Virus record (IMG/VR): IMGVR_UViG_3300014625_000019
From: a virus
Taxonomy: Duplodnaviria > Heunggongvirae > Uroviricota > Caudoviricetes
Length of the DNA stretch: 21,072 nucleotides
Reading direction: 5' to 3' (one strand)
Shown here in pieces: positions 61 to 15,608 of the stretch. Made by a program: the position numbers and the translations under genes. The stretch's first letter is position 1; every line of letters starts with the position of its first letter. Under the pieces are notes generated by a model. That model was not told where the DNA came from, did not search any database, and saw only the letters and a list, made by a program, of their open reading frames with translations.

Positions 61-471
61 TTGGCAGCATTACCTGGAAGCACTCCTTATTATCCTAAAA
101 CATACAGTTCACCAAGCTCATCAGGCTCATCCAATTCAGGTACAAATTCGCCATCGTCTTCTTCATCTGTTCGTTCGCTTCGCTCAAATGACACCGATGC
201 CTCTACGACCACAAACTCTGCTGGAATGAATGGAACTACTCGTGCAAGTAGTGGGCTGGCTTCTGATACTGAAAAGCGTAAGCGTTTGATCATGCGAGTG
301 CAGTTCGCATTACTGGATAAAGGGTTTTATAACGGCAATATAGACGGAAGTATGGGGCCTGCGACACGAACTGCTATCAAAAATTACAGAGTTGCATATG
401 GGCTTCCTACTCCAGTAAGAGAAACATTAGATGCTCAGTTATTGAACTCTTTGAATATACTTGCTCGTTAA
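61..471 (+). CDS. Small peptidoglycan-binding-domain protein (Ser-rich low-complexity linker, C-terminal PG_binding_1-like motif); start uncertain
   Basis: ORF bounded by in-frame stops at 1-6 and 49-51. C-terminal LLDKGFYNGNIDGSMGPATRTAIKNYRVAYGLPT fits the PG_binding_1 pattern (L-G-Y-x-G-x-x-D-G-x-x-G-x-x-T-x-x-A-I-x-x-F-Q-x-x-x-G-L). No ATG at the 5' end: candidate starts are TTG at 61 or ATG at 226. No obvious signal peptide. Confidence 0.45.
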   Translation: MAALPGSTPYYPKTYSSPSSSGSSNSGTNSPSSSSSVRSLRSNDTDASTTTNSAGMNGTTRASSGLASDTEKRKRLIMRVQFALLDKGFYNGNIDGSMGPATRTAIKNYRVAYGLPTPVRETLDAQLLNSLNILAR

Positions 472-489
472 AATATTAGGTAAAATAGA

Positions 490-2097
490 ATGAAGATAAA
501 ACTCTCTATTTATAAAACAAAAAGGTTTAGCGATGATATTGATCAGATTTTGAATTTGGAAAGGGTCAAAAGACCTGTTGAATTCGAGATGGAGGATGCA
601 CGAGCATATCTATATGTAAAGGAGTACATGGACCCAAAACCTCCTGAATGGACCACCTTTTTTATGGGCCAAAATCCTGGCATAGAACCTGATTTCTTCG
701 GTATGAATAGTAGCACAGGAGCAGTATTAGTTATTGAAGCTAACAATTCCAGATATCTTATTCCCTTTGGAACCGGTCATCACTTAATCAATGATGGCAG
801 CATTGTCAAAGGATTTGGGCTTAAAACAACTCTTAATAGTATAGAACATAAAAAAATTCGCAGTTTAGATAAAGGCAGTCACAACGAAACGAACCTGTTA
901 ACTCGCAGTCAGAGCAGTAAAGAAGTCGATATATACAACCTAAAAATAGATTCTGAGATGGATATTCTTACAACTCTCACAGGCACTTCGACAGAAGATA
1001 TTTTAGGAAGTAAAATTACTGGCAAAGATGCTTTTGTGATCATGCCGGATATTGAATTGAAGGCTATTCCAGCACTGTTGACCAAAATAGACTCTATTTA
1101 CTTATTACCTCTTCCTGAAGAATTCGAATGGGTTAACAATATCAAGGAGGCTGATGAACAAGAAGTTGAGATATTGGATTCGCTTTTGATTGATCGGATA
1201 AAGGAAAAAGACTTCAATGATTTATGGCTTGGAGAGCCAGAAATAGTAGACTGGGAAAATCAAATAGGCTATTGCTTTGATAAGAGACAAAGATTCATTC
1301 ATGAAACCTTATCAATATACCATGTTTGTGATTATTTTGATGGTAAGAAAACTGAAGTAACTGTTGATGAACTCAAAAAAAATTACCTGCATGTTTTGAA
1401 TGCCGATTTTGAATCAATAAAAAAATGGTCTTTATATAGGTGCCTCTATGCCGAGATAAAAGAAGGTGATCAGAACTATATTCTTCGAGACTCTATATGG
1501 TATGTTGCAGATAGGAATTTTGTATCGACTATTGATGATGAAATGAAAAAAATAATTCATTATGAGGAGTCGGACAAATTCCCTGTATATTCATATAAAC
1601 GAGAGGAGGATTATAATAAAAAACTTTGCCAAGATGATAATTCCTTTACACACATGGATCAGAAATTCATTCATCATGGTGGTGGTAAAAGTAAGATTGA
1701 ATTTTGTGATCTTATCAGAGGTCAATCAGATTTTATCCATGTAAAATATTATACTGGTTCGCAAAGTATGAGCCATCTTTTTTCACAAGGATTTATAGGT
1801 TCTGAACTTTTTATAAGTGACTCTGAATTTCGAGGCAAACTTAATGAGAAACTGCCTGCTCATATAAAATTAGCCGATCATATAAATAGACCAGATGCTA
1901 AAAAATATAAACTAGTTTTCGCCATAGCTTCTAATAAAAATCTTCCCGAAGATTTACCTTTGTTTTCTAAAGTAAACTTAAAAAATTTCCACAAGAGTAT
2001 TACCAATTTTGGGTATGAGGTCAGGATCTGCAAAATTGCTGTGGACCCAGATATTTATAAAAAGAAGCTATGTAAACCACAAAAGAACAAGCTTTAA
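490..2097 (+). CDS. Hypothetical protein, 535 aa, lysine-rich, AT-rich codon usage, no recognisable catalytic motif
   Basis: Long uninterrupted ORF with an ATG start and a weak SD (AGGT) about 9 nt upstream. No convincing Walker A, PLD HKD or canonical PD-(D/E)xK signature found by eye (PDIELK at the VIMPDIELK segment is too compact to be canonical). No transmembrane segments. Confidence 0.7.
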   Translation: MKIKLSIYKTKRFSDDIDQILNLERVKRPVEFEMEDARAYLYVKEYMDPKPPEWTTFFMGQNPGIEPDFFGMNSSTGAVLVIEANNSRYLIPFGTGHHLINDGSIVKGFGLKTTLNSIEHKKIRSLDKGSHNETNLLTRSQSSKEVDIYNLKIDSEMDILTTLTGTSTEDILGSKITGKDAFVIMPDIELKAIPALLTKIDSIYLLPLPEEFEWVNNIKEADEQEVEILDSLLIDRIKEKDFNDLWLGEPEIVDWENQIGYCFDKRQRFIHETLSIYHVCDYFDGKKTEVTVDELKKNYLHVLNADFESIKKWSLYRCLYAEIKEGDQNYILRDSIWYVADRNFVSTIDDEMKKIIHYEESDKFPVYSYKREEDYNKKLCQDDNSFTHMDQKFIHHGGGKSKIEFCDLIRGQSDFIHVKYYTGSQSMSHLFSQGFIGSELFISDSEFRGKLNEKLPAHIKLADHINRPDAKKYKLVFAIASNKNLPEDLPLFSKVNLKNFHKSITNFGYEVRICKIAVDPDIYKKKLCKPQKNKL

Positions 2098-2253: not shown

Positions 2254-2466
2254 TTATGCCGCAATAGCTTTAAATTTTTGAGCAATGACATAATCACTCC
2301 ACCACTGCATGAGAATCACTCGTTCTGCCAGATATTCCGGGCGATTGTAAGCTGCAATTATTTCATCTTTCTTCGAGTGGGCAAGGGCCGCTTCTAAGAC
2401 ACCAGTCCTGAACTTACCAGATTCGTCTGTCGCCGTTCTCACAATAGATCTCATTCTGTTAACCAT
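2254..2466 (-). pseudogene. 3'-terminal remnant of a P4-type tyrosine integrase (about 70 codons, N-terminal about 340 codons missing)
   Basis: Translation MRSIVRTATDESGKFRTGVLEAALAHSKKDEIIAAYNRPEYLAERVILMQWWSDYVIAQKFKAIAA aligns almost residue-for-residue with the C-terminus of the intact integrase at 6212-7441. Nucleotide similarity decays upstream of about 2470. Confidence 0.6.
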
Positions 2467-2593
2467 AAGTTCACCTCCTTAAACCGTTCGAATGATTACG
2501 GCTTATACTGCCTACTTATGCTAATATCTAAGAGAAGCCATTATGGTTGTGTAAGTATACTTCATGGTTTATTTCGGATATATAAAACCATAC

Positions 2594-3490
2594 CTATGAC
2601 TGGCTGTTTTCAGCAAGAGTCTTATCATCTAAAGAATTTATTTTCGAAATTCTTTTTAACTCATTAAGATAATCAACCTCGTTTTCCAAGAACCAATGAA
2701 GAACTTTAGAGTTACCAAGTAATTTAATAATATATGACTGGATTATAACGAATTTCAACATATCTGAACCATACTCGGTTTGAAGCTTTTTTGTTTCTTC
2801 CGAAGTTGTTGCCATTTCCTGTTCCAGACGAAGTATGGTTTTTTTTATGTCCTTTTTATAGGGAGTGTTTTTCCCTTTATTTATTATCATCGATGCCGGT
2901 GTTGCATCCAAGATGCTCATTGCAAATTTTTTACTATAATTATCAAAATTAATCATTGTACCGACTGCTTCAATTTGACGAATTGGTTTCATTTTCCTCA
3001 AAACATCAAATGTAGCCTTAGGTATTGGTTTATCAGAAAGTTTCGCAATCACACTTGGATCTATACCGTTCATCACATTAGCTTTATCTTTTATAGCATC
3101 AATAGATATGCCCAAAGCAGCACTAAGTTTTTCAATTGAAACTTTTGCTAAGGACTTGATTATCATTCTATGTTCTTCAACTACATTTATATGATTGACT
3201 TGTTTGTTAGGAGTGAACGCATCATCTATGCTCGAAAGTATACATGGAGCTTTTTCTATGCCTAAATCTTTTAAAGCCTCAACCCTCAAATGGCCATCGA
3301 GTATCTTAATGGCATCTTTATCTTTGTCATAGAACACTATTATTGGTTCAATAATACCTAAGCTTTCAATTGAGGTAACTATTTGATGGTATTTATGACT
3401 TAGCTTTACATTTTCTAACAATTCCTTAGAGGGAATTAACTTGTTAGTTTCTAAATAAATAAAATTGTCGCCAAAACGTATCTGAATCAT
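2594..3490 (-). CDS. ParB/Srx-fold DNA-binding protein (ParB-like N-terminal domain with LDGHLRVEA box, predicted HTH), 298 aa
   Basis: Start codon overlaps the stop of the upstream gene (ATGA at 3487-3490). Motif IIVFYDKDKDAIKILDGHLRVEALKDLG resembles the ParB/Srx G-x-x-R-x-x-A box. Helix-turn-helix-like segment SIEKLSAALGISIDAIKDK. Confidence 0.6.
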   Translation of the reverse strand: MIQIRFGDNFIYLETNKLIPSKELLENVKLSHKYHQIVTSIESLGIIEPIIVFYDKDKDAIKILDGHLRVEALKDLGIEKAPCILSSIDDAFTPNKQVNHINVVEEHRMIIKSLAKVSIEKLSAALGISIDAIKDKANVMNGIDPSVIAKLSDKPIPKATFDVLRKMKPIRQIEAVGTMINFDNYSKKFAMSILDATPASMIINKGKNTPYKKDIKKTILRLEQEMATTSEETKKLQTEYGSDMLKFVIIQSYIIKLLGNSKVLHWFLENEVDYLNELKRISKINSLDDKTLAENSQS

Positions 3491-4383
3491 TTTGATGCCT
3501 CTTTGTTTATTGGATTGAGGATCTGAGATGGCTGTTCTGATAGATTCTCTTGTTCAAGTATATTTTGAAAGCTTTTATTCATCATTATGATGTTAAAAAT
3601 CTCATTTACTATCAGCAAATTAGTTTTAATAAATTTAGAGTTGTTATAAACAGATTTATGTTCAGCGATACTATTTTCATAAAGCTCAATTAACTCCTCA
3701 GCAGTCATTCTTTTTGATGGTTTGTGATAATAAAACCCGGCTGCTTTTGCACCTTTATTCCCAATTGTTCGCTGATTTAGAATGTGTTTTATCTTTATAA
3801 TGTCTCGGCTTTTTATTAATTTTTTATCATATGCTTCGGTAAGAATATCTTGTGCTTCTTCAGTTTCACATCTTGCAAATTGCACTGCGAGATACAGAGG
3901 CAAATTCCCCCGTTCGACTGCAGAGAGAAGTTTATGCTCTCCCTTATCAAGAAGCATATTTATACTGCTCACCCAGTTCGATGAATACCCAGTAATCTCA
4001 CTTATTTCGGAGTCTGAAAGTCCTCTGTTTTTCATATCTTTTATTATCTGTAATAACTCATTGGAACGTGGTCTCCTCCTTGCAATGTTTTCAACCAAAC
4101 TCATAACATAAGCATCTTCTTCTGATACATCTCTTATAATTGCAGGAATAATGGTCTCACCTAATGCAACGAGAGCCTCTATTCTCCCTTGGCCACAAAT
4201 TAAAGCATATTTGAAGTCGTCTTCATCAATCGCTCTTACGCTTATAGGCTTGCTTAATCCTCTTTTTTTTATGCTTTCCTTAATTTCTTCATGCACTACC
4301 TTATTTCTAGTGCGCGGGTTAAGAAATTTTATTTTGGCAATTTCAATTTGGATTATTGGGAATTCATTTGATTCAGGCAGCAT
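3487..4383 (-). CDS. ParB/Srx-fold DNA-binding protein (ISVRAIDEDDFKYALICGQGRIEA box, predicted HTH), 298 aa; paralogue of the downstream gene
   Basis: Start overlaps the 3' end of the recombinase gene by 11 nt. SD-like GAGGG upstream of the ATG. ParB-like box ICGQGRIEALVALG. HTH-like LSDSEISEITGYSSNWVSSI. Confidence 0.6.
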   Translation of the reverse strand: MLPESNEFPIIQIEIAKIKFLNPRTRNKVVHEEIKESIKKRGLSKPISVRAIDEDDFKYALICGQGRIEALVALGETIIPAIIRDVSEEDAYVMSLVENIARRRPRSNELLQIIKDMKNRGLSDSEISEITGYSSNWVSSINMLLDKGEHKLLSAVERGNLPLYLAVQFARCETEEAQDILTEAYDKKLIKSRDIIKIKHILNQRTIGNKGAKAAGFYYHKPSKRMTAEELIELYENSIAEHKSVYNNSKFIKTNLLIVNEIFNIIMMNKSFQNILEQENLSEQPSQILNPINKEASK

Positions 4384-5929
4384 ATAGTTCCCTCACTTTC
4401 ATTCGAGTAATAATTTGTAGAAGTTTATCCAGATTATCAAATCTATAGAGATCTAATCGAATGTTGTTTGTTTCCGTCATGCACATTTTACTATATTCGT
4501 TTTCAATCTTTGGTATGATATAAAAATCAAGTGGTGTAATATTTTGTGAATCCATTCGTATAACAATTGTTATGTCTGCTTTCTGTGAGTTATCAAACCG
4601 GACTTTCCATCTAAGTTTACCCGATTTCATATGTGTGCATTTGGTAATAAGGACGGAAATTAAAAACTCATCATTGATGTAAAGCATTGGTGCATATTTA
4701 TATTCGTCTATATAGCAGTTGCTTTTTATAATTCCCCCCTTAAAATCCTCAATTATGCCTGAGTAAAATGATCTTAGTGCTTCATTTATTTGGATATAGC
4801 TGTAATCATGTTCTGGCTTATAACCAATCAAAGTATATGCTCTTAAAAGACCACCAAATCGGGTTCTGTAAACAGAAGATGAAGGGCCTGTATCATCTTC
4901 ATCAATGATAAAGCCAGATAGTTTTCCATTAGTTTCTAATTTTTGTTTTAGCTTTTCTAAAAGCTCTTCATTAGTCAAATGTACGGATCGGAGCTGAATT
5001 ATTTCTTGAGCTTTATTATATTTTTTCTTTGAAATAATGGGTTTGTATGCCTTGTCGCATCTAACCCATTCATTTTTTGGGTTTTTTACAAGCCTACTTT
5101 TTAGTTTAGATGAGGTTTTGTTATATATGTTATTTCCAATATATTTTTCATTTGTTAAGATTTGATGTATTTTTGCACGAGTCCATAATGTTCCATTTTC
5201 TGCAGGTATATTCTGTTCGTTTAGTCTCTCAGCAATAATGAATTCTGGCATGTTATCATCTATAAAGAGATCATAGATGCTATTTACAATTTTTATCTCA
5301 TTTTTTGGTCCAGGAATTAATATTACCCTATCTGTTTGAATACTCTTTCTTTTGCGGAAGCCCAATATTTCTTTAGCTATGCCATTTTCATCTACTAAAA
5401 GACGTCTCAGCCCATAACCAGCCATTCCGCCTTGATGATAACCAAGCTTTATTAAATTTACTTGCCCTATAAATACCTTTTCTGATAAATTCCTGCTGTG
5501 ATATGCAGCACTAGATCTTTTTATGTTCAGTATAACAGAAGACTCTAAAGGGAAATCTTTAGTGGGAATAGGTTCAGAACAGTATATAAGATCTACACCG
5601 TTTCTCTCAAATAGAAAGGAATAATATGCAGCTTCATCACTATTTTGAAAACGACCAAAACGGCTCACATCATAAAATAATACAGCCTGTATATCTATTT
5701 TCTTTTGTTCTACATCACTAAGTAACTGCTGCAAAGAATGCCGGCCTATGATACTGACTCCGCTCTTACCTGCATCATCGTAGGTATAAGCGATTTCCAT
5801 ATTGTTCTTTTCAGCATAATCTTTGATATATTCGGACTGATTATGTAAAGAATATTGCTGATGGTCGGTAGACATCCTCAAGTACTGTGCGACCCTAACT
5901 TTATGATTTTTATCATTTTCTCTAGCCAT
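4373..5929 (-). CDS. Large serine recombinase (resolvase/invertase-type catalytic domain plus recombinase domain), 518 aa
   Basis: N-terminal YLRMSTDHQ motif with the catalytic serine, followed by the DDAGKSG and VSRFGR motifs of the resolvase domain. Recombinase-domain-like WTRAKIHQILTNEKYIGNNIY. SD GAGG about 8 nt upstream of the ATG. No CxxC pairs seen in the C-terminal region. Confidence 0.8.
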   Translation of the reverse strand: MARENDKNHKVRVAQYLRMSTDHQQYSLHNQSEYIKDYAEKNNMEIAYTYDDAGKSGVSIIGRHSLQQLLSDVEQKKIDIQAVLFYDVSRFGRFQNSDEAAYYSFLFERNGVDLIYCSEPIPTKDFPLESSVILNIKRSSAAYHSRNLSEKVFIGQVNLIKLGYHQGGMAGYGLRRLLVDENGIAKEILGFRKRKSIQTDRVILIPGPKNEIKIVNSIYDLFIDDNMPEFIIAERLNEQNIPAENGTLWTRAKIHQILTNEKYIGNNIYNKTSSKLKSRLVKNPKNEWVRCDKAYKPIISKKKYNKAQEIIQLRSVHLTNEELLEKLKQKLETNGKLSGFIIDEDDTGPSSSVYRTRFGGLLRAYTLIGYKPEHDYSYIQINEALRSFYSGIIEDFKGGIIKSNCYIDEYKYAPMLYINDEFLISVLITKCTHMKSGKLRWKVRFDNSQKADITIVIRMDSQNITPLDFYIIPKIENEYSKMCMTETNNIRLDLYRFDNLDKLLQIITRMKVRELYAA

Positions 5930-6211
5930 GCACGAAACCTCATGGATGATTCAATACAATGTAGAGAATAAAATTGATCAATTTTTAACCAAATTCAACT
6001 CTTTTATCATCGATTAGAGCGAATTTGGTAAATCTTCGAGGTGTATGATAATCGAGAAGAGATGTGAATTATTTAGCTGATATGATCTACAGCTTTCGTT
6101 ATGTGGCCTCAAGGTAGTCATTCGTAAATGGCTATGCTTAGTCCACATAGGTTTATAGTGTGATTATTAATTCTTTAACTAAATCAAGATAGTTAACCCA
6201 TCATGGAAGAG

Positions 6212-7441
6212 TTATGCGGCAATAATTTTGTATTTTTGAGACGAAACAAAGTCACTCCACCACTGCATGAGAATCACCCGTTCTGTGAGATACTCTGCAC
6301 GATTGTAGGCTGCAATTATTTCATCTTTCTTCGAGTGGGCAAGGGCGGCTTCTAAGACATCAGTCCTAAATTTGCCAGACTCCTCCGCAGCCGTTCTGGC
6401 GATTGATCGCATACCGTGAGCTACAAGCTCACCTCCGAAACCCATACGGATTATGGCCGCATTAGCTGTTTGTTCATGCATGTGATTGAGTGGAGCTTTG
6501 ATACTGGGGAAAACCCACTCTCTATGCCCACTGATGGCTTTCATTAAATCCAAAACTCGCAAAGCTTCTTTGCTCAGTGGAACTTTGTGAGGCTTCTTCA
6601 TTTTCATAAACTCCGCTGGGATGTTCCACATGCCAGTTTCAATATCAATATCTGACCATCTTGTGCGAACAGCCTCACCAGGACGAACCCAAGTTAGCAA
6701 TTGCCATTCAATCAGCAATCGTGTCTCCATACGGACTGATGCGTTGTTTAACACTGTAAGGAAGCGGGGGAGTTCGGTTGGGGGCAGGGCTGGCATGTTC
6801 TGTTTCTTCGGCTTACTAAATCTCTGGGCAAGATTGTCAGCCGGATTGAATTCTATGAGTTCTTCTGTTGCTGCATAGCGGAAAATTTCATTCAGGCGGG
6901 ATATGATGCGGCGAAGTGTTTCAAGGACACCTCGTTTTTCTATGGGGTCTAAATGCTGTTTAAGCATTTTAGGCCGAATCTCTTTAATGGGAGTATCACC
7001 CAATGTGGGAAAGATATTTCTCTCCAGGCTTCGCCAGATGTCTTCTGCATGGTCTTGTGAGATACCTGAGGTCTTTACCTTCTCGTCCAACCATTTCCTT
7101 GCTACGGCTTGAAGAGTGTGTTCAATAGCACTCTTTAATGCCTTCGCCTTATTATTGTTATGGACTTGGGGATCAACACCATTTGCCAGTAAGGAGAGAT
7201 TTTCATCTCGTAAGGCTCTGGCTTTTGCAAGGGTAAGGTGAGGATAGGTCCCAAGGCTCATTTTTGTTCTTTTCTTGCTTACTGGTACTGCATACCTGAA
7301 ATACCAATTTTTCTTGCCACCTTTCGCCAAAGGAGCGATTCGTAGAATCAAACCATCCCCGTCGAACAAGTTGATTTCTTTATCGGCTGGCTTGGTGCTT
7401 TTGATTTCAGTGTCAGTGAGTTTCTTAGCGATTTTTGCCAT
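6212..7441 (-). CDS. int: P4-type tyrosine integrase (site-specific recombinase, tRNA/tmRNA-targeting family), 409 aa
   Basis: N-terminal arm-binding-like segment (LFDGDGLILRIAPLAKGGKKNWYFRY). C-terminal catalytic region with the R...H-x-x-R...Y arrangement (HGMRSIARTAA, AAYNRAEY). Architecture parallels CP4-57 IntA as I recall it. Lies directly next to the ssrA 3'-end fragment. Confidence 0.85.
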   Translation of the reverse strand: MAKIAKKLTDTEIKSTKPADKEINLFDGDGLILRIAPLAKGGKKNWYFRYAVPVSKKRTKMSLGTYPHLTLAKARALRDENLSLLANGVDPQVHNNNKAKALKSAIEHTLQAVARKWLDEKVKTSGISQDHAEDIWRSLERNIFPTLGDTPIKEIRPKMLKQHLDPIEKRGVLETLRRIISRLNEIFRYAATEELIEFNPADNLAQRFSKPKKQNMPALPPTELPRFLTVLNNASVRMETRLLIEWQLLTWVRPGEAVRTRWSDIDIETGMWNIPAEFMKMKKPHKVPLSKEALRVLDLMKAISGHREWVFPSIKAPLNHMHEQTANAAIIRMGFGGELVAHGMRSIARTAAEESGKFRTDVLEAALAHSKKDEIIAAYNRAEYLTERVILMQWWSDFVSSQKYKIIAA

Positions 7442-7605: not shown

Positions 7606-7637
7606 TGGTGGAGCTGGCGGGAGTTGAACCCGTGTCC
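7606..7637 (-). other. ssrA: 3'-terminal fragment of ssrA (tmRNA): T-arm, acceptor 3' strand and CCA; putative att core / junction repeat
   Basis: Reverse complement GGACACGGGTTCAACTCCCGCCAGCTCCACCA matches my recollection of the E. coli tmRNA 3' end (GGACGCGGGTTCAACTCCCGCCAGCTCCACCA) at 31 of 32 positions. Sequence further 5' in RNA sense (window coordinates above 7637) does not continue as tmRNA, so this is a fragment, not a gene. Confidence 0.55.
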
Positions 7638-8064: not shown

Positions 8065-8880
8065 ATGTTGCAGCCAGCAAAAAAAGCATCAGTTATTAGC
8101 GCGCGGCTAACTAAATACCTCAAAGATGGAGTGAGGATTGATGACTTTAGCTTTAGAAGGATGTTACGTGAGATTGAAGCACTTAGAGATCCTGTCTCTG
8201 AGGACTATCTTTTAGCGTTGGTCTATGGTGCACATGGCCAAGTGAATGAGGCGATAGGCTTCTTTGAGCGTTCCTTGCAGGTATGCCATAATGAGGTTGT
8301 TGCAAAGAATTTTCTTGTTTTCTTGTCAGATTACGGTACGTTGAAGAAAAGCTTTGAAACAAGCATTAAGCTTGCTGAAAGCTTCATATCCCCGTTTATT
8401 TATCTTCAAGCTTATGAAAACTCCCTCTTTATGGGGAAGATGGCGTTGGCGGAGAAGTATTTCCAGTCATACTCTAAATTGTTCGGAGATAAGGAGCCTG
8501 AAAAAATGGACAACAATTTTGATGAAGTTGTTTCCCAGGTCGAATCCTTTAAGCAACGTGCCGATCTTTCTGGTTTAGAATATGAACTTATTTTCAATAA
8601 TGTAGCCAATGTCATGGATTCTCAGAAGGTTCATCTTTCGGGAATGCGTTTTTATAATATTTCGGAAGAGAAAGTGAATGCGATTGTATTCATGACAAAG
8701 TCTTCTGATGCTGAACAAATCGCTGATATGAATATTGAGCTTGCTTTTTCAATGGCTGAGCACGATTGTTTAGTCGGTAAAGATTTTGCTGTTTGGTTTG
8801 AATGTAAAGACACACATATTGAGCAGAATGCTATCTCCGAATTAGGTCTGATTACCCGGAGGGTTGCACATGCCGGTTAA
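8065..8880 (+). CDS. Hypothetical protein, 271 aa (first gene of a two-gene moron operon)
   Basis: ATG start preceded by an AAGG SD. Long AT-rich leader upstream (7640-8064). Overlaps the downstream gene by 11 nt. No recognisable motif. Confidence 0.6.
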   Translation: MLQPAKKASVISARLTKYLKDGVRIDDFSFRRMLREIEALRDPVSEDYLLALVYGAHGQVNEAIGFFERSLQVCHNEVVAKNFLVFLSDYGTLKKSFETSIKLAESFISPFIYLQAYENSLFMGKMALAEKYFQSYSKLFGDKEPEKMDNNFDEVVSQVESFKQRADLSGLEYELIFNNVANVMDSQKVHLSGMRFYNISEEKVNAIVFMTKSSDAEQIADMNIELAFSMAEHDCLVGKDFAVWFECKDTHIEQNAISELGLITRRVAHAG

Positions 8881-9253
8881 TAGTCAAGATTTTCTCGGTT
8901 TTGCAAAAGACTGTCATCAACGTAATGACGAAATCGGCTATCGAAATGCTATAGCAAGATCCTACTATGGCGCTTACCATCATGTCTTGCCTTGTATGGT
9001 AAACGGGCCGAAAGACAGTCATCAGGGGCTAATCAATTATTTGCAGGGCGATGCTTCAAGAGGAAGTGAAGTATATGAAGCTAGATATCTAAAAGGGATT
9101 AGTTTTATCCTGAGTCAACTTAAAGCTCAGAGGATTGTTGCAGACTATCGACTTGATCAATCGGTCACTTCTAAACAGTCTGAAGTTGCGATTCTAACAA
9201 CTGAGAGGCTCTTTGCTAAGTGTACGGAAATGCTTAAATCGAGAGCCTCCTAA
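8870..9253 (+). CDS. Hypothetical small protein, 127 aa, with an R-x6-H motif (possible HEPN-like fold)
   Basis: ATG at 8870 preceded by GGAGGG (8857-8862) at 7-nt spacing; the track ORF begins at an in-frame TTG at 8864. Motif AIARSYYGAYHH matches the minimal HEPN R-x(4-6)-H signature, but it is N-proximal, so the assignment is tentative. Confidence 0.55.
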   Translation: MPVNSQDFLGFAKDCHQRNDEIGYRNAIARSYYGAYHHVLPCMVNGPKDSHQGLINYLQGDASRGSEVYEARYLKGISFILSQLKAQRIVADYRLDQSVTSKQSEVAILTTERLFAKCTEMLKSRAS

Positions 9254-9258: not shown

Positions 9259-9283
9259 AAAGCCACTTAAGTGGCTTTTTTTG
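9259..9283 (+). terminator. Rho-independent terminator hairpin (AAAGCCAC-TTAA-GTGGCTTT plus T-run), possibly bidirectional
   Basis: Perfect 8-bp inverted repeat with a 4-nt loop followed by TTTTT on the plus strand and an A-run on the other side. The int stop codon (9267-9269) lies in the loop. Confidence 0.5.
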
Positions 9284-10439
9284 TGATATTGCTGGTCGTA
9301 TTACCGTCATATTCCTTTAAATATGAACCATAATGACGAAATAACATTTCCGGCCCTTTATGCCCCATTTGAGCTGCAAGCCAAAACAGGTTTGCTCCCC
9401 GGCTGATATGGCGGGTGGCGAATGTATGCCTAGTTTGATATGGATTTCTGTAACGAATACCTGCTTTTCGCAATGTTGGCACCCATGCTTTTTTCCTGAT
9501 TGCATCAGCACTTGCCCAAGGCTTATTGGTCTTTGGATCTTCAAAGACAGTAGTATCCTTCATGAATGTAAATGGCTTCTGATTTATCAGCGCCAACATT
9601 GCCTCTTCTGTCAGTTCAACTTTCCGAGTACCTGCTTTTGTCTTTGTCCCTTTGATAACACCGACAACACTTGCGCTCTGGACATGGGCAGTTTTTCCAA
9701 CAAAGTCGATATCACGCCATCGAAGGGCACATAATTCAGAACTACGCAGGCCTGTATGTATAGCGAACCGGAACAGATTTTCCCATTGTTTGTTTCCGGC
9801 TGCTGCTAGTAATGCATCAACTTCTGCTGGTGATAGCGGATCAACTACGTAGCTGCTTTCTGCTTCTGACTTATCACTTTGGTAGCGCGAAGCTGTTACT
9901 AACGATACGGGGTTAATTTGAAGTACCCCATCGGTCACGGCTTCATCAAGTGCTGACCGCAGGAAAGATAACTGGTTGCGAATTGTTTTTAAGGTCGTTT
10001 TCTGATTTTGAATCCACGCTTTCAGGGTTGCTGGTGTTAATTCACTTGCAGGGCAAATGTGAAGTGAGGCTAACGCACTACGGCATTTTTTATAGCCACC
10101 AATCGTAGAGGGTGAAAGTTTTCTTGTTTCGCAGATTTCAAGATATTCGTCCAGGTACATCTTTACCGTTTTGCCTGCAGCAGCATTACCAAAAATTTTC
10201 AAACGAGCAGAACGGGGAAAATATTCTGCATAAATGAATGTTCCCCTTTCGATCTTATTATGGATTTCGCCGAGTGTACGCTCGGCGTATTTAATGTTCT
10301 TTGGTGTTACTTCCAGATTGGAAAGCGGCTCACGACATCTAACTCCTTTGTAGGTGAAAGTTATATTGATCGTTTCTCCCTGGCGGTGTTTCCTGATTGT
10401 TACGCCGCGCGGTAGTTTGAGCAGTTTTGTCTGGCCCAT
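9267..10439 (-). CDS. int: Lambda-type tyrosine integrase, 390 aa
   Basis: Catalytic signature GLRSSELCALRW (Arg), RHTFATRH (His-x-x-Arg), LFRHYGSY (Tyr). N-terminal arm-binding-type region. 5' end overlaps xis, as in lambda. Confidence 0.85.
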   Translation of the reverse strand: MGQTKLLKLPRGVTIRKHRQGETINITFTYKGVRCREPLSNLEVTPKNIKYAERTLGEIHNKIERGTFIYAEYFPRSARLKIFGNAAAGKTVKMYLDEYLEICETRKLSPSTIGGYKKCRSALASLHICPASELTPATLKAWIQNQKTTLKTIRNQLSFLRSALDEAVTDGVLQINPVSLVTASRYQSDKSEAESSYVVDPLSPAEVDALLAAAGNKQWENLFRFAIHTGLRSSELCALRWRDIDFVGKTAHVQSASVVGVIKGTKTKAGTRKVELTEEAMLALINQKPFTFMKDTTVFEDPKTNKPWASADAIRKKAWVPTLRKAGIRYRNPYQTRHTFATRHISRGANLFWLAAQMGHKGPEMLFRHYGSYLKEYDGNTTSNITKKAT

Positions 10440-10606
10440 TTTGCAACCTCACTAAGATCAATCCACCTCTCCTTAACGCCTTCAACCTTTAAAACCTGAA
10501 CACCTTCACGCCAAACACCGCGCTGTACACGTTTGTTTATTGCTTCAGGAGTTTCGCCAGTTTCTTTGCAATAAGTTGAGATAGGAACACAATCGAGGTT
10601 CAGCAT
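10400..10606 (-). CDS. xis: Excisionase (Xis-like small DNA-binding protein), about 68 aa
   Basis: Small basic protein immediately upstream of and overlapping int. Internal ATG at 10606 has GGAG 6 nt upstream; the track ORF extends to 10645 but lacks an SD there. Loose resemblance to lambda Xis at the N-terminus. Confidence 0.6.
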   Translation of the reverse strand: MLNLDCVPISTYCKETGETPEAINKRVQRGVWREGVQVLKVEGVKERWIDLSEVAKWARQNCSNYRAA

Positions 10607-10647
10607 ACGTTTCTCCATTATCCCGTCTGCACACGGGAGCAACATTA

Positions 10648-11514
10648 TTAACGAATAGTGTCGTTACTTTGAAGTACAGCAAATGCCATTAATACTTCTA
10701 AAGTATATCTTCTATAAAATTTAACAAAACCAACATAGAAAACATAGACGAAGAAAAAGCTAAGCATTATTGAAAGTAAACTATAAAGATAATCACTATG
10801 AGTACATAATCGATAAATAAAGGTTGGAACTGATACCCAAAATGAAATTATAAAGATTAAACATATGTTTCTGCAAAAACCATATAATGCAACATAGTTT
10901 TGAATTTTTGTTTGATGTTGTTTTGAAAACTCATAAACATAATGATATGCCAATCTGAAGAGATCATCATCAAGTCCGTTTTTATCTTGTAATAATTGGC
11001 GATTTGTTATGAACTTTTTCTCATAACCTTCTTTGATCATTAACCATGTTGTATTAGCTAAATGAAATGGTAGAGATTGAGAATAACATAGTTTTTGTGT
11101 TATAAAATCCCATAGTATTATTGGGCATAATACGCATTTGATTATGCGATTCTTTATTTTTGTTTTTTTATCAGCGCTTCTCTCATCGCATGATGGGCTA
11201 CAAATGCTTTCTGAGGTATCTATCAATTTTTTAAATAGATATTTGGAAGGATATCCTAATTCTTTATTCATGTATTTTTCGATAAAAAATGCTGACGTGA
11301 TAGAAATAAAATGTCCAGCTATATAAGATATAATAACTATTGAAGCGTAGTTCAAAATGCCAAAGATTTGACTTTGACCTCTGAGCAATTCACTTAAGTC
11401 AATAACAATATCTAGATCGAATGTCAAACCACAGAAATACATTAATAGGATAAAAAAACCACCTGGTATTAAATATCCAAGAAAGTCATAGAATGAGAAT
11501 GGATTTTGATTCAT
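10648..11514 (-). CDS. Predicted integral membrane protein (about 4 TM segments, Cys-containing central soluble region), unknown function; AT-rich moron
   Basis: Hydrophobic stretches FLGYLIPGGFFILLMYFCGLTF, IFGILNYASIVIISYIAGHFISITSAFFI, ICLIFIISFWVSVPTFIY, LLSIMLSFFFVYVFYVGFV. ATG at 11514 with GGAG 7 nt upstream; the track ORF starts at TTG 11538. Stop abuts the xis start. Confidence 0.6.
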   Translation of the reverse strand: MNQNPFSFYDFLGYLIPGGFFILLMYFCGLTFDLDIVIDLSELLRGQSQIFGILNYASIVIISYIAGHFISITSAFFIEKYMNKELGYPSKYLFKKLIDTSESICSPSCDERSADKKTKIKNRIIKCVLCPIILWDFITQKLCYSQSLPFHLANTTWLMIKEGYEKKFITNRQLLQDKNGLDDDLFRLAYHYVYEFSKQHQTKIQNYVALYGFCRNICLIFIISFWVSVPTFIYRLCTHSDYLYSLLSIMLSFFFVYVFYVGFVKFYRRYTLEVLMAFAVLQSNDTIR

Positions 11515-11622
11515 TGTTGCTCTCCAATAATTTTTCAATTTGTAATATAACCTATATCTATATGTTAATAAATTACTTATATGTTCTTTTATGGCAGAGT
11601 TTGAATTCGTACGTGCTGATTT

Positions 11623-12147
11623 TTACGACTCAGTTAACTCTTTAAAGCGTTCCATAAACATCCCATAGGTATGGCCTGGCGACAGTGGAATAACTTTGAA
11701 CATCTCTGTTGCCGGGATACCTTCCAGTACGGGCCAGAAAGAGCCATCATCAAGCCCGAGATCGCGGCGTTCGGTTGCCAGCATGATGAGATCGGCATAT
11801 TTCACGGGCGTACTCATAACCGGGGGTAACCCGTATTTCTCACGGATTACGGCGTCTATTTTTTCTTCCATCCGTTTATAGTCAGGAAGAAGGCGTTTCA
11901 GTGGAGCCGGGATGTCCTGGCAATACGCTTCTGTTGCATCATGCATTAACGCTTCAAAAGCAAATTCCTGCGGTACCAGCTGGCTGCAAAGCACCGCATG
12001 TTGGGCGACGCTGTAGAAGTGTGAAAGATGGCCGGCAAAGCGACAGATATTTGAAAGGGAAACCGCGATATCGTTAATATCGATGTTGTCTTTATTTATC
12101 CTGTCATAATAAAAATGTTTCCCGGAAAAAGTTTTAATAAATGACAT
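11623..12147 (-). CDS. yfdR: HD-domain phosphohydrolase (YfdR-like 5'-deoxynucleotidase family)
   Basis: HD signature H...SVAQH...L(x)nLMHDATEAY with downstream acidic residues. ATG at 12147 with GGAG 6 nt upstream; the track ORF starts at GTG 12159. Name assigned from recollection of the CPS-53 prophage yfdR; not verified by search. Confidence 0.7.
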   Translation of the reverse strand: MSFIKTFSGKHFYYDRINKDNIDINDIAVSLSNICRFAGHLSHFYSVAQHAVLCSQLVPQEFAFEALMHDATEAYCQDIPAPLKRLLPDYKRMEEKIDAVIREKYGLPPVMSTPVKYADLIMLATERRDLGLDDGSFWPVLEGIPATEMFKVIPLSPGHTYGMFMERFKELTES

Positions 12148-12275
12148 TTTGTTCTCCACGTTATATGCGCTGCACCGCGCTGAATTTTGGTTAAAGAAAA
12201 CCCTCGCCTTCAGGCGATTATTGAGTCAATTACGTTTCCATAAATGCCCCCGCAGGGGCATTTGCAGTAATGAAA

Positions 12276-13100
12276 TCAGGCGGTGAAAGTCCCAATAAAG
12301 GTTTCTACTTTGCTGTCCTTGAATTTCTCAACAAGCAGATCACGAAATTCGTTAGCCATATCTTCCTGCACCGCTTCCAGCTGAATAATGCGCAGAACCA
12401 GTACAGGACGATCGCCAGTGATAATGCTGAGGCGTAATTTAAACGGACGTTCTTTCAGACCTTCAAACGGAACGCATTTAAACTCAAATGCCACTGGCAT
12501 AATGTCTTTGGTCTTCGCTTCGACAGACTCCATCAGGGAGCGTTTGCCGCTGAAGTCATTATCTTCAAAATCAGCAGTCTGGTTTGCTTCAATCGTGATT
12601 TTACGGACCGCCGCAGCCGCTTTTGTTGCCTGAATGGTGTCACCATTAGCATCAAAGCCCACAAGGTAGTCGGCCCAGTCTTCGATCCATTCTGCCAGTG
12701 ACTTCTGGGAGTTACGCTCGCCGTTAACAGACAACAGAGCAGAGAACGGTGCTGTCTTTTTCAGTTTGAGAGTGGCAGTGTTATCTGCGTGACCTGGCTC
12801 ATCAATAGTACCCAGGTTAAGCACACTGACGGCACGCATATTATCGGCATCGATAAAGCAGCGGGTGCCTTCATCTGCAAGATCTTTAGAATAACGGGTA
12901 AAATCATCGATGCTGGCAGTGGAAAGTGCACCACGGAAACGGAAGCGATTTAAATTAAATTTTTCCAGATCATGAATGCGGAAATTCTCAGGCAATGCCA
13001 CAGCATCGGCACCAATCTTACTGATAATTTCATTAACACCCTGAGCAGAAATAAGGGCATGGATTTGATTAATTGCGGTTGCGTCTAAGTTCTGAGACAT
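12276..13100 (-). CDS. yfdQ: YfdQ-like prophage protein (DUF2303-type), 274 aa
   Basis: Uninterrupted ORF in the same orientation within the yfdP-yfdQ-yfdR order. Size and N-terminus ([12 protein letters not shown]...) match my recollection of E. coli YfdQ; unverified. Confidence 0.65.
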
Positions 13101-13165
13101 AATAAGTCCTCACTATATAAAGATATTCAGTGATGAGATAAATAATCAGTTTATTACGAACGATA

Positions 13166-13528
13166 TTAACGACCTGCTGCGCGGAGTTTTCCGTCAGGTT
13201 CACCGGCAAGAGTCAGTAATTGTCCCTGGTCTTCCTGCAGAATAGTCAGGCGACCACCGCGATTGACATACATCGGCGTTTCGGTGGTGTCTTCTTCGGA
13301 AATTTTCCCGCGGTTAGTTGGGCGAACATATGAGAGTTTGTGTTTGATTTTCACACGGTTCTCATCAAACGGTTCGATTTCCAGGTTGAGCGAGACCTTA
13401 CCTTTGGTTTTCGTGTTCATCACACCGGAAGCGACTTCACTGAGAACTGCGCCGATTTTGGTTTCAAATACGCCGCCGTCCAGCTCCCCGATAAATGCCT
13501 GCACATCAGTACTGCGTTCGCTAGCCAT
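13166..13528 (-). CDS. yfdP: YfdP-like small prophage protein, 120 aa
   Basis: ATG at 13528 (MASERSTDVQ...) with GAGGAG SD 9 nt upstream. The longer track ORF (to 13846) extends into a GC-rich region with Arg/Cys-rich, non-protein-like translation, so the shorter start is preferred. Confidence 0.6.
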   Translation of the reverse strand: MASERSTDVQAFIGELDGGVFETKIGAVLSEVASGVMNTKTKGKVSLNLEIEPFDENRVKIKHKLSYVRPTNRGKISEEDTTETPMYVNRGGRLTILQEDQGQLLTLAGEPDGKLRAAGR

Positions 13529-13576
13529 TTTGCTGCTCCTCATCATATCGACCCTGCAAGGTCGGTTAGTTTCTCC

Positions 13577-13665
13577 ACAAAACAGAGAAGAACACCTGCG
13601 GTGACTGCCGCCCGGATGGATTGGGTTATGAGCCCGTCGTCCGGTGATGCTCTTCTCTGTTTTGT
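13577..13665. repeat. Long inverted repeat (18-bp arms, 17 of 18 complementary) enclosing a 53-nt GC-rich segment; potential large hairpin
   Basis: ACAAAACAGAGAAGAACA (13577-13594) pairs with TGCTCTTCTCTGTTTTGT (13648-13665). Lies in an apparently non-coding GC-rich segment upstream of yfdP. Confidence 0.5.
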
Positions 13666-13929
13666 AAAAAGGACGGTACCAGCCGGAAGCAAGGGTACAA
13701 GCTGGTACCGCCAGGACTACACACAGCATAAAGTTGTGGTGCCGGGTGCCTCCCGGTGCCTGGCGAAGGTTGCACACCAGGCGGGTGGGTATCCACAGAA
13801 GGTCGACTGTCAGCCTCAACCTTAACCCGCGTGCGCTGAGCCGCATTCACCACAACGCTAAGGATTCTCTCTGGTTGAAAATACTTAGCTGTTATGTGCC
13901 TGCTTTTAGCCACATCAGGCGAGGTGGAC

Positions 13930-13981
13930 CTGGTTATTCCCCAACAACAAGGATTCGGTTAATCTGGTTATCCCCAACAAC
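13930..13981 (+). repeat. Two direct repeats CTGGTTAT(T)CCCCAACAAC separated by 15 nt, immediately upstream of the 13997 start codon; possible regulator binding sites
   Basis: Copies at 13930-13948 and 13964-13981 differ by a single extra T. Confidence 0.5.
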
Positions 13982-13996
13982 GCAAAAGGAAAAGAA

Positions 13997-14609: not shown

Positions 14610-14668
14610 TTCACACCTCCTCAAGTTATCAGTTACTTGTTGATGGGGACCAGATTGTTAAAGAGCTA

Positions 14669-14691
14669 AGCGTCCTGTAGGGCGCTTTTTT
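14669..14691 (+). terminator. Rho-independent terminator-like hairpin plus T6 on the plus strand
   Basis: AGCGTCC-TGTA-GGGCGCT stem (7 bp including one G-U) followed by TTTTTT. No annotated plus-strand gene ends nearby, so it may terminate read-through from the 13997 gene or a small RNA. Confidence 0.4.
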
Positions 14692-14798: not shown

Positions 14799-14804
14799 TG
14801 TCAA

Positions 14805-15605: not shown

Positions 15606-15608
15606 TGT

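What the first reader, a model, noticed from the sequence alone, without database searches (positions are those of the whole stretch)
2594..5929. Coupled triplet of a large serine recombinase plus two paralogous ParB/Srx-fold proteins as the only cargo beside a P4-type integrase
Three minus-strand genes are chained by overlapping stop/start codons (11-nt overlap at 4373-4383; ATGA at 3487-3490), which implies co-translation as one unit. The first encodes a 518-aa serine recombinase (YLRMSTDHQ catalytic motif). The next two encode equal-length (298 aa) ParB/Srx-like proteins whose arginine box is degenerate (ICGQGRIEA and LDGHLRVEA, versus the GERRxRA CTP-binding box of partition ParB) and looks closer to DGQHR/DndB-type variants; each also has an HTH-like segment. 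The island already has its own tyrosine integrase at the att site, so the serine recombinase is probably not the island integrase. ParB-fold proteins occur in DNA-modification and defence contexts (Dnd, Dpd, GmrSD-type), but I know of no described defence or maintenance system with a recombinase-ParB-ParB architecture. The AT-rich composition and the position directly behind an integrase at a tmRNA hotspot are typical of defence-island cargo. Alternatives: a partition-like maintenance module for the excised element, or an invertase-type switch.
Basis: partly seen in the sequence, partly recalled or inferred. Interest (0 to 1): 0.8.

Follow-up and report, generated by a model that had tools for sequence, protein, structure and literature searches.

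The report
Serine recombinase plus two ParB cassette
Three overlapping genes in an E. coli genomic island (a large serine recombinase and two ParB-like DNA-binding proteins) form a cassette that is kept intact in hundreds of bacterial species, moves between mobile elements as one unit, and has apparently never been described or tested; it looks more like a recombination or mobility module than an anti-phage system.

Summary
Genes 4373-5929, 3487-4383 and 2594-3490 (all minus strand) overlap by 11 and 4 nt. They encode a large serine recombinase (LSR) and two 298-aa proteins with ParB_N and PF07506 domains.

The triplet is strongly co-conserved: same order in about 76 of 80 species-level loci, in alpha-, beta- and gamma-proteobacteria, on chromosomes, megaplasmids and mobilizable islands. 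dN/dS is 0.05-0.17 for all three genes.

It behaves as a discrete 3.6-3.9 kb cassette with unrelated flanks. In Agrobacterium plasmids a 19-bp direct repeat flanks it, and a related plasmid carries one copy at a left-side-only empty site. In a second E. coli island type it replaces 406 bp of a conserved backbone.

The LSR model resembles the SPbeta and Bxb1 integrases. The ParB2 model resembles the CTP-binding clamps ParB, Noc and KorB, not DndB. ParB1 resembles Spo0J/Noc by sequence.

No ParA is present, and no PADLOC or literature match was found. Known defence genes are rare among neighbours.

Alpha/beta relatives add a small HTH gene and a covarying ~136-nt RNA-like motif absent from Rfam and from this window.

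Best reading: an LSR-driven recombination/mobility module nested in other mobile elements (confidence 0.4). Rivals: a stability module, or defence. The function is untested.

The parts
4373..5929 (-). Large serine recombinase (518 aa), first gene of the cassette. Catalytic Ser in the RMST motif. The C-terminal ~200 aa are conserved across the family but lack zinc-ribbon cysteines.
   Evidence: Pfam Resolvase + Recombinase. Family alignment. AF2 model (mean pLDDT 64) matches SPbeta integrase 9dxd/9dxh (E 1e-12, 454-474 columns) and Bxb1 9iu2. dN/dS 0.055 versus the Salmonella copy.
3487..4383 (-). ParB1 (298 aa): ParB N-terminal domain, HTH and C-terminal region. Overlaps the LSR stop by 11 nt.
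   Evidence: Pfam ParB_N 8e-14 + PF07506. TIGR00180 64.7 bits, above its cutoff. Best solved relatives are Spo0J 1vz0 (7e-12), M. xanthus ParB and Noc. Family invariants: NPRxR, GL[KR]xPIxV, CG[QE]GR, MSLxEN.AR.
2594..3490 (-). ParB2 (298 aa): diverged ParB N-domain (DGHLR), HTH, a 47-residue helix and a helical C-terminus. ATGA overlap with ParB1.
   Evidence: Pfam PF07506 8e-23. AF2 mean pLDDT 76.7. Foldseek top hits: ParB-CTPgS 7bnr 1e-9, Noc 7ol9, ParB-CDP 6sdk, KorB 8qa8. 494 clusters at 50% identity with E<=1e-10, nearly all 290-310 aa.
5930..6204 (-). Conserved non-coding leader of the cassette. It probably holds the promoter and is a candidate cis site. Its distal ~70 bp (about 6133-6204) are a relic of an older integrase 3' end (QWWANYLD-coding).
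   Evidence: DNA homology (82-83%) with Salmonella/Cronobacter copies runs from 6204-6209 to 2619-2622. No strong sigma-70 match or repeat was found.
2486..2593 (-). 108-bp spacer after ParB2. It is not conserved with the Salmonella/Cronobacter copies and lacks the RNA-like motif found in alpha/beta relatives.
2254..2485 (-). 3' fragment of a second P4-type integrase. It marks the junction with the DUF6119/Hxs block and forms a 38-bp exact repeat with the intact integrase.
   Evidence: PGAP annotates it as a pseudogene in strain Z0117EC0005. The repeat explains the recurrent 3980-bp Logan contigs.
6212..7441 (-). Intact P4-type tyrosine integrase of the island (context, not part of the cassette).
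   Evidence: Pfam Arm-DNA-bind_3 / Phage_int_M / Phage_integrase. NF007246 443 bits.
7607..7636 (-). 30-bp copy of the ssrA (tmRNA) 3' end: the att repeat of the island. A prophage has inserted beyond it.
   Evidence: Sequence comparison with strain Z0117EC0005, where full ssrA follows. Prophage genes at 9267-21072.

Best explanation
The three genes are one self-contained cassette (LSR, then ParB1, then ParB2) that is inherited and horizontally transferred as a discrete 3.6-3.9 kb unit and nests inside other mobile elements. Examples are P4-integrase islands at ssrA, MobQ/TraD mobilizable islands, rhizobial megaplasmids and sphingomonad conjugative plasmids.

Most likely it is a site-specific recombination (integration/excision) module, either a hitch-hiking mini-element or an auxiliary integration engine. 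In this model the integrase-type LSR exchanges strands at a site in the cassette's non-coding flank. The two ParB/KorB-like proteins bind beside that site as a dedicated pair, probably nucleotide-dependent. They would assemble or gate the synapse, set directionality as a recombination directionality factor (RDF) does, and/or hold the excised circle.

Shown here: operon structure; co-conservation; equal purifying selection on all three genes; modular transfer with sharp ends; an att-like direct repeat plus an empty site in Agrobacterium; fold assignments.

Inferred: that the LSR made those junctions; what the ParB proteins do; and that the E. coli copy is still active.
For: 1. The same order LSR-ParB1-ParB2, with overlapping or abutting genes, occurs in about 76 of 80 loci from GTDB species. 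The exceptions are truncated or decayed copies. It also occurs in 36 of 55 IMG/VR hits, where most of the remaining hits are cut by a contig end.
2. dN/dS is 0.05-0.17 and divergence is equal for the three genes.
3. Flanks are unrelated while the cassette stays 84-97% identical across genera.
4. In Agrobacterium, the 3.9-kb unit L007:5044-8947 is 96.9% identical to a copy in a different plasmid context (L097). The motif CCTKGARNGGRRTYGAACC occurs exactly at both ends of each copy, once at an empty site with the same left flank (L098), and only once elsewhere in 100 loci. SCC elements moved by Ccr serine recombinases are likewise bounded by direct repeats of about 15-20 bp (general knowledge).
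5. In an E. coli mobilizable-island backbone, a 3,664-bp segment (250 bp leader + triplet + 104 bp) replaces 406 bp found in strains 042 and MS 21-1. The cassette is therefore optional and discrete.
6. The LSR model aligns over most of its length with the SPbeta and Bxb1 integrases. Its best NCBIfam hit, though far below cutoff, is CcrB.
7. Frequent decay fits a selfish element: frameshifted LSR in L026/L040/L045/L052/L084, truncated ParB1 in Cronobacter, and remnants in S. meliloti.
Against: - No flanking repeat above shuffle background and no empty site was found for the window-type cassette. In E. coli it always travels with the DUF6119 block, and the P4 integrase can explain the island's mobility.
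- The L098 empty site matches only the left flank. The E. coli 042 comparison is a replacement, not a clean insertion.
- The cassette is usually single-copy.
- The LSR lacks zinc-ribbon cysteines and has no PF13408 hit. Its model confidence is modest.
- No LSR system is known to use ParB proteins, so their role is pure inference.
- The direct-repeat motif looks like a tRNA 3' end, a typical target of tyrosine integrases.
Confidence: 0.4

Rival explanations
1. Stability module for the host mobile element. The LSR would resolve multimers or cointegrates at a res-like site. The ParB pair would act as a ParA-less centromere-binding, anchoring or silencing complex, analogous to plasmid par/mrs loci.
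For: - In 15 Rhodobacteraceae loci the operon lies next to a divergent parDE toxin-antitoxin pair. This layout resembles RK2 parCBA/parDE, which combines a resolvase with a toxin-antitoxin pair (the RK2 layout is from general knowledge).
- A conserved non-coding element sits immediately downstream of ParB2, where parS/sopC centromeres usually lie.
- A Tn5053/Tn402-type TniABQ set, a family known to target sites bound by serine resolvases, abuts the ParB2 stop in one Agrobacterium plasmid.
- The cassette is present on conjugative plasmids and in mobilizable islands near the relaxase and leading region.
Against: - It is not enriched on plasmids: 103 of 72,556 PLSDB records, mostly megaplasmid accessory regions.
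- Most copies are chromosomal.
- Many E. coli genomes carry the same mobilizable-island backbone without it.
- No ParA ATPase was noted in any of the gene tables read, but ParA was not specifically searched for.
- The LSR is integrase-type, not a small resolvase.
- The downstream element covaries like an RNA, with G-U pairs, rather than a repeat-type centromere.
- The TniABQ adjacency is not recurrent.
Confidence: 0.22
2. Anti-phage or anti-plasmid defence/exclusion system. ParB-like sensors or clamps would load on foreign DNA and a recombinase would inactivate or rearrange it.
For: - The cassette is AT-rich cargo next to an integrase at a hotspot.
- Some neighbours are defence-like: Gabija in Rahnella; AbiE, Fic and a restriction enzyme in pAtC58; Abi and toxin-antitoxin genes in a Paraburkholderia plasmid; TIR + CoiA in E. 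coli 49610.
- It is optional and patchily distributed.
Against: - No PADLOC model matches beyond weak ParB-domain similarity to methyltransferases.
- Across 21 Enterobacterales loci, known defence proteins occur in only one or two.
- No nuclease, NTPase or other effector domain is present.
- Att-like repeats and cassette-type mobility point to self-mobility.
- No experimental data exist.
Confidence: 0.12
3. Regulatory or switch module. The ParB pair would act as KorB- or BisD-like long-range transcriptional regulators of the host element. The LSR would act as an invertase or excisionase-type switch rather than a mobility enzyme.
For: - ParB-like CTP clamps regulate genes of mobile elements: KorB is among the structural matches, and BisD of ICEclc is described in PMC12409273 (found).
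- Alpha/beta versions add a divergent HTH regulator and a structured RNA.
Against: - No inverted repeats flank any invertible segment.
- The flanking genes differ in every context, so there is no constant regulatory target.
- The LSR is integrase-like.
Confidence: 0.08
4. Chance adjacency of an ordinary partition ParB pair and an unrelated recombinase.
For: Database names only: 'ParB/RepB/Spo0J family partition protein' and 'recombinase family protein'.
Against: Fixed order and overlap in about 76 of 80 loci across classes. No ParA. Non-canonical arginine box. PF07506 is essentially specific to these proteins.
Confidence: 0.01

Closest known systems
Large serine integrases/transposases (SPbeta SprA, Bxb1 Int, TnpX of Tn4451, CcrA/B of SCCmec)
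   Same: Resolvase catalytic domain with the RMST serine, recombinase domain, and ~500-aa size. The predicted fold aligns with SPbeta and Bxb1 integrases over most of the chain. Relatives in Agrobacterium are bounded by short direct repeats, like SCC elements.
   Different: No zinc-ribbon cysteine motif and no PF13408 hit; instead a family-specific conserved C-terminal region. Always followed by two ParB-like genes rather than a small RDF. The score against CcrB is far below its cutoff (65 vs 900 bits). No att pair was demonstrated for the E. coli copy.
ParB-family CTP-dependent DNA clamps (chromosomal ParB/Spo0J, Noc, KorB of RK2, BisD of ICEclc)
   Same: ParB N-domain + HTH + C-terminal helical region. 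Best sequence and fold matches are ParB-CTPgS, Noc and KorB. ParB1 conserves GxxR and ENxxR. KorB and BisD show that such proteins serve mobile elements outside partition (PMC12409273).
   Different: The arginine box is GQGR / GHLR instead of GERR. There are two diverged copies in tandem. No ParA/IncC partner is present. No parS or operator site was identified. CTP binding is untested.
RK2/RP4 par stability locus (parCBA multimer resolution operon divergent from parDE)
   Same: A serine recombinase heads a three-gene operon. In 15 Rhodobacteraceae loci it lies beside a divergent parDE pair.
   Different: RK2 ParA is a small resolvase, and RK2 ParB is a nuclease unrelated to the ParB/Srx fold (general knowledge). 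The present cassette is mostly chromosomal and optional.
P4-type integrase islands at ssrA with int-proximal cargo hotspots
   Same: The cassette sits directly downstream of a P4-type integrase at an ssrA att copy. P4-type integrases lie within three genes in 9 of 21 Enterobacterales loci.
   Different: The cassette also occurs without any tyrosine integrase nearby and in alpha/beta-proteobacterial plasmids. It is not a component of P4-like satellites (no psu/sid/delta/alpha genes here).

Membership tests
Large serine recombinase (integrase-type) | N-terminal resolvase catalytic domain with nucleophilic serine | tested here: met
   PF00239 8e-22. The RMST motif is invariant across 41 homologues.
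Large serine recombinase (integrase-type) | Recombinase domain (PF07508) following the long alpha-E helix | tested here: met
   PF07508 6e-22, residues 210-312. Aligns with SPbeta integrase residues 188-307.
Large serine recombinase (integrase-type) | Zinc-ribbon domain with embedded coiled-coil | tested here: inconclusive
   No PF13408 hit and no conserved Cys pairs. Foldseek nevertheless aligns 454-474 columns with SPbeta integrase, although the model is of modest confidence.
Large serine recombinase (integrase-type) | Cognate att site pair flanking the element | tested here: inconclusive
   A 19-bp direct repeat and an empty site were found in Agrobacterium relatives. Nothing above background was found in the window.
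Type I partition ParB (ParABS) | ParB N-terminal domain + HTH DNA-binding domain | tested here: met
   Pfam/TIGR00180. PDB sequence and fold matches.
Type I partition ParB (ParABS) | GERRxRA arginine box / CTP pocket | tested here: not met
   GQGR in ParB1 and GHLR in ParB2. Only the GxxR core is kept. CTP binding cannot be tested here.
Type I partition ParB (ParABS) | Adjacent ParA ATPase | tested here: inconclusive
   None in the window. No ParA was annotated among the Pfam- or PGAP-annotated neighbours inspected, and the recurrent neighbour families are not ParA-like. ParA was not searched for directly in the 80+ loci.
Type I partition ParB (ParABS) | parS centromere repeats nearby | tested here: inconclusive
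   No repeat families in the window flanks. Relatives carry a conserved downstream element, but it behaves like a structured RNA.
DndB / GmrSD-type ParB-fold defence proteins (DGQHR) | Closest sequence/fold relatives are DndB/DUF262-type, with associated modification or nuclease partners | tested here: not met
   Top fold and sequence matches are ParB, Noc and KorB. No Dnd/Dpd/GmrSD partners are present, and PADLOC is negative.
Known anti-phage defence systems (PADLOC-DB v2) | Match to a defence-system protein model | tested here: not met
   LSR: no hit. ParB1/ParB2: only weak hits to the ParB domain of type II methyltransferases.
SCC-type cassette chromosome recombinase (CcrB) | NCBIfam equivalog score above cutoff | tested here: not met
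   65.4 bits against a cutoff of 900.

The most novel reading that the evidence does not exclude
LSR-ParB1-ParB2 is a previously unrecognised, widespread class of mobile-DNA machinery. In alpha/beta-proteobacteria it is joined by a divergent HTH gene and a ~136-nt structured RNA. In this reading, ParB-type nucleotide-dependent clamps and possibly an RNA direct or license a serine integrase. The result would be either a new kind of minimal integrative element or a new inter-element conflict/exclusion system.
Probability: 0.3. Interest if true: 0.8.

Novelty: new variant of a known kind. Interest (0 to 1): 0.64.

Why it matters
- A Pfam family named 'RepB plasmid partitioning protein' (PF07506) would turn out to mark a recombinase-linked cassette, not a partition system. 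That would correct the annotation of thousands of genes.
- Large serine integrases are leading genome-engineering tools, and control of their directionality by accessory proteins is an active question. A natural LSR that has co-evolved with two ParB/KorB-like partners would be a new control logic. In one lineage a structured RNA is also present.
- ParB-CTP clamps are being found in roles beyond chromosome segregation (Noc, KorB, BisD). Coupling to site-specific recombination would extend that list.
- The cassette is also a useful marker for boundaries and nesting of mobile elements in Enterobacterales islands at ssrA.

Tried and rejected
- Terminal direct or inverted repeats around the window cassette: nothing above shuffle background, apart from the integrase / integrase-fragment duplication.
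- Empty site in E. coli for the window-type cassette: none. All 61 genomes with the DUF6119 junction also carry the triplet.
- Recurrent 3980-bp Logan contigs as a sign of a circular form: rejected. They span window 6338 to 2359 and are bounded by the 38-bp exact repeat shared by the integrase and its fragment, which is an assembly effect.
- A tRNA gene at the Agrobacterium att-like repeat: ARAGORN finds none.
- The hairpin GGCGTGYCGGAG-N9-CTCCGGCACGCC as a terminal inverted repeat: it occurs only at the right end, covaries, and looks like a transcript-end hairpin.
- S. meliloti multi-copy hits: these are decayed remnants and were not informative.
- Sphingomonad plasmids: the cassette lies in a variable hotspot between ArdC and DUF2493, with no clean empty site.
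- TniABQ next to ParB2 in one plasmid: no terminal inverted repeats found and not recurrent.
- Rfam search of the RNA-like motif: no family. A covariance-model search for it in the window and in Enterobacterales found it absent.
- IMG/VR hits clustering at contig ends: judged partly a consequence of how provirus boundaries are called, so not used as evidence.
- Literature searches (serine recombinase + ParB-like, PF07506, DUF6119, RinQ, 'RepB C-terminal domain-containing', RDF virtual pulldown paper): no description of this cassette.

Full report
**1. The observation**

The window is E. coli chromosome. Three minus-strand ORFs sit at exactly the stated coordinates: 4373-5929 (518 aa), 3487-4383 (298 aa) and 2594-3490 (298 aa). 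The overlaps were read from the sequence. The LSR stop and the ParB1 start share 11 nt (ATGCTGCCTGA). ParB1 and ParB2 share ATGA. Each start has a GAGG-type ribosome-binding site upstream.

Pfam domain hits:

| Gene | Domain 1 | Domain 2 |
|---|---|---|
| LSR (first gene) | Resolvase, 8e-22 | Recombinase, 6e-22 |
| ParB1 (second gene) | ParB_N, 8e-14 | RepB/PF07506, 4e-9 |
| ParB2 (third gene) | RepB/PF07506, 8e-23 | ParB_N, 7e-6 |

GC content is 32-34% over the cassette.

- ParB1 and ParB2 are only distantly related to each other: 32% identity over 63 aa.
- The window holds no tmRNA gene. It does hold a 30-bp copy of the ssrA 3' end at 7607-7636, next to the P4-type integrase at 6212-7441.
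- In other E. coli the same 7.2 kb lies directly beside ssrA.
- Here a prophage has inserted between the island and ssrA. It carries its own integrase (9267-10439), an S24 repressor, CII, a portal protein and a Mu-like baseplate.

**2. Local anatomy**

- Downstream of ParB2 lies a 232-bp 3' fragment of a second P4-type integrase (2254-2485; 83% aa identity to residues 344-409 of the intact integrase).
- After that fragment come DUF6119/TIGR04141 and the end of a His-Xaa-Ser (HxsDBCA) cluster.
- In Salmonella, Cronobacter and Enterobacter copies (82-83% DNA identity over the cassette), the integrase fragment lies upstream of the LSR instead, and DUF6119/Hxs follows ParB2 directly.
- Cassette homology runs from window 6204-6209 to 2619-2622. 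It therefore includes a 275-bp leader, whose distal part is itself a relic of an integrase 3' end.
- The simplest history is tandem accretion of P4-integrase islands at ssrA, with deletions, and an ancestral int-then-triplet arrangement. Rahnella and Pantoea also show this arrangement.
- All 61 complete E. coli genomes with this junction carry the triplet, so there is no local empty site.
- Recurrent 3980-bp assembly contigs are explained by a 38-bp exact repeat in the two integrase ends.

**3. Co-conservation**

- A ParB2 search found more than 1,400 relatives.
- An exhaustive search found 494 clusters at 50% identity with E<=1e-10, nearly all 290-310 aa long.
- A single peptide pattern recovered relatives in 319 of about 100,000 species-representative genomes.
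- In the 80 loci retrieved, LSR-ParB1-ParB2 occurs in the same order and tightly packed in about 76. The exceptions are truncated contigs or decayed copies.
- Hosts span gamma-, beta- and alpha-proteobacteria plus an Acidobacteriota MAG. Replicons include chromosomes, pAtC58 and other rhizobial megaplasmids, a 30-kb Paraburkholderia plasmid and sphingomonad conjugative plasmids.
- dN/dS is 0.05-0.17 for all three genes, and their divergence is matched.

**4. The cassette is a discrete, transferable unit**

- Flanks are unrelated while the cassette remains 84-97% identical between genera.
- In Agrobacterium, a 3.9-kb unit (a small divergent gene plus the triplet) is 96.9% identical in two different plasmid contexts.
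  - The 19-bp motif CCTKGARNGGRRTYGAACC lies exactly at both ends of each copy.
  - It occurs once in a related plasmid that shares the left flank but lacks the unit.
  - It occurs only once more in the 100 loci examined.
  - No tRNA gene is present at that site.
- A second triplet type occurs in 7 E. coli genomes, inside an ssrA island that also carries MobQ and TraD.
  - Compared with strains 042 and MS 21-1, a 3,664-bp segment (leader + triplet + 104 bp) replaces 406 bp of an otherwise conserved backbone.
  - The cassette is therefore optional for that island.
- In Enterobacterales, the most frequent neighbours among 115 proteins from 21 loci are P4-type integrases (9) and DUF6119/Hxs (5-6). 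Known defence proteins are rare.

**5. The proteins**

- The LSR family is conserved along its whole length. Its C-terminal ~200 aa lack zinc-ribbon cysteines but carry family-specific motifs (LSGxIIDE..PSSSxYxxRFGSLxxAY; RWxxRxD..PDITxxVRM..DYYxxP..AYRFD).
- The LSR AF2 model (pLDDT 64) matches SPbeta integrase complexes (E 1e-12, 454-474 columns) and Bxb1. By sequence it also matches the TP901-1 and TnpX catalytic domains.
- ParB1 resembles Spo0J, M. xanthus ParB and Noc over its N-domain and HTH. It keeps NPRxR, GL[KR]xPIxV, CG[QE]GR and MSLxEN.AR as family invariants.
- The ParB2 AF2 model (pLDDT 76.7) has an N-domain, an HTH, a 47-residue helix and a helical C-terminus. It matches ParB-CTPgS, Noc, ParB-CDP, KorB and Caulobacter ParB.
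- Both proteins are therefore ParB/KorB-type DNA binders with a reduced GxxR box, not DndB/GmrSD-type.
- No ParA was seen in the window or in any of the annotated neighbourhoods inspected; ParA was not searched for directly.

**6. Extra components in relatives (absent from the window)**

- About 46 of 60 alpha/beta loci carry a small divergent gene with weak HTH signals directly upstream of the LSR.
- About 45 of 62 carry a ~136-nt element immediately after the ParB2 stop.
  - It has six helices.
  - 94.8% of cells are paired, 16 pairs show compensatory changes, and many G-U pairs lie on the operon strand.
  - 0 of 500 shuffles reach the observed covariation.
  - Rfam has no match.
  - A covariance model finds it in 25 further loci, but not in the window, Enterobacterales or Agrobacterium.
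- Fifteen Rhodobacteraceae loci add a divergent parDE pair.

**7. Interpretation**

The data establish a conserved, autonomous cassette whose enzymatic core is an integrase-type serine recombinase.

- **Best-supported reading (0.4):** a recombination/mobility module nested in other mobile elements, with the ParB pair acting as dedicated DNA-binding accessory or regulatory factors. The Agrobacterium direct repeats and empty site, the cassette replacement in E. coli islands, the cross-genus transfer with sharp ends and the frequent decay all fit. The link between the LSR and those junctions is inferred, and nothing comparable was found for the window copy.
- **Stability module (0.22):** fits the parDE neighbourhood and the position of a conserved element downstream of ParB2. 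It is weakened by the lack of plasmid enrichment, the optional nature of the cassette and the absence of ParA.
- **Defence (0.12):** has only contextual hints and no model match.
- **Regulatory or switch role (0.08):** remains possible.
- **Chance adjacency:** excluded.

**8. Novelty**

No paper in the searchable library describes this architecture. Database names ('plasmid partitioning protein RepB C-terminal domain-containing protein', 'recombinase family protein') are uninformative. I rate it a new variant of a known kind: an LSR-based mobile-DNA module with unprecedented ParB partners. There is a 0.3 chance that it represents something more distinct.

Noticed in passing
L059:7465-7600, L066:6945-7080, L083:10909-11045 and ~45 other alpha/beta-proteobacterial loci; absent from the window: A ~136-nt element with six helices lies immediately after the ParB2 stop. 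It shows strong covariation (16 compensatory pairs, 94.8% paired, 0/500 shuffles) and G-U pairs on the operon strand. Rfam 15 has no match. It is a candidate new structured RNA linked to this cassette.
   Followed up: yes
window 61-2097 (HxsA end + DUF6119); L010, L015, L033, L035, L037: A DUF6119/TIGR04141 gene plus the His-Xaa-Ser radical-SAM cluster (HxsDBCA) lies convergent to ParB2 in six Enterobacterales loci. Their cassettes have diverged to 44% ParB2 identity. This is a recurrent linkage of unknown meaning.
   Followed up: partly
L002:5041-5424, L007:5083-5490, L008:4862-5209, L104:5748-6362: A small divergently transcribed gene (115-210 aa, weak DeoR/HTH_36 signals, motif AGWTGxSERTVKxW) sits upstream of the LSR in ~46 of 60 alpha/beta loci. 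This makes the module a quartet there. It has no counterpart in Enterobacterales.
   Followed up: partly
L107:6916-10501 (A. tumefaciens LN-1 plasmid): TniQ-TniB-TniA (the Tn5053/Tn402 family, known to target sites bound by serine resolvases) ends 16 bp from the ParB2 stop codon. No terminal inverted repeats were found and the adjacency is not recurrent.
   Followed up: partly
L100:20016-23679 versus L164:5569-5974 and L165: A second triplet type occurs in 7 E. coli genomes, inside an ssrA island with MobQ, TraD, TIR and CoiA genes. In E. coli 042 and MS 21-1 the same backbone carries an unrelated 406-bp segment instead of the 3.66-kb cassette.
   Followed up: yes
window 8065-9253: Two small genes lie between the ssrA att copy and the prophage integrase. 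One is 271 aa with a weak TPR hit; the other is 129 aa with weak HEPN-like PADLOC hits. This may be a moron or toxin-antitoxin-like pair at the prophage end.
   Followed up: no
window 10648-11538: A 296-aa multi-pass membrane protein in an AT-rich patch of the prophage shows weak similarity to Csx27 (PADLOC E 1.4e-5).
   Followed up: no
window 6133-6204: Just after the stop codon of the intact integrase lies a degenerate second copy of an integrase C-terminal coding stretch, homologous to the QWWANYLD-coding part of the Salmonella integrase fragment. This shows that the integrase upstream of the cassette has been swapped.
   Followed up: partly
L040-L069, L086 (15 Rhodobacteraceae loci), ~0.9-1.3 kb upstream of the LSR: A parDE toxin-antitoxin pair is conserved on the opposite strand beyond the small HTH gene. 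The layout recalls RK2 parCBA/parDE.
   Followed up: partly
L104:4551-10175 (Sphingobium pNIN3) versus L105, L106: Sphingomonad conjugative plasmids have a variable hotspot between ArdC and DUF2493 in the leading region. In pNIN3 it holds CoiA plus the quartet. In relatives it holds arsenic resistance genes, transporters or trios of tyrosine recombinases.
   Followed up: partly
L101, L103 (3980-bp Logan contigs) = window 6338-2359: Many independent assemblies yield an identical-length contig containing only the cassette. This is caused by a 38-bp exact repeat shared by the integrase 3' end and the integrase fragment.
   Followed up: yes
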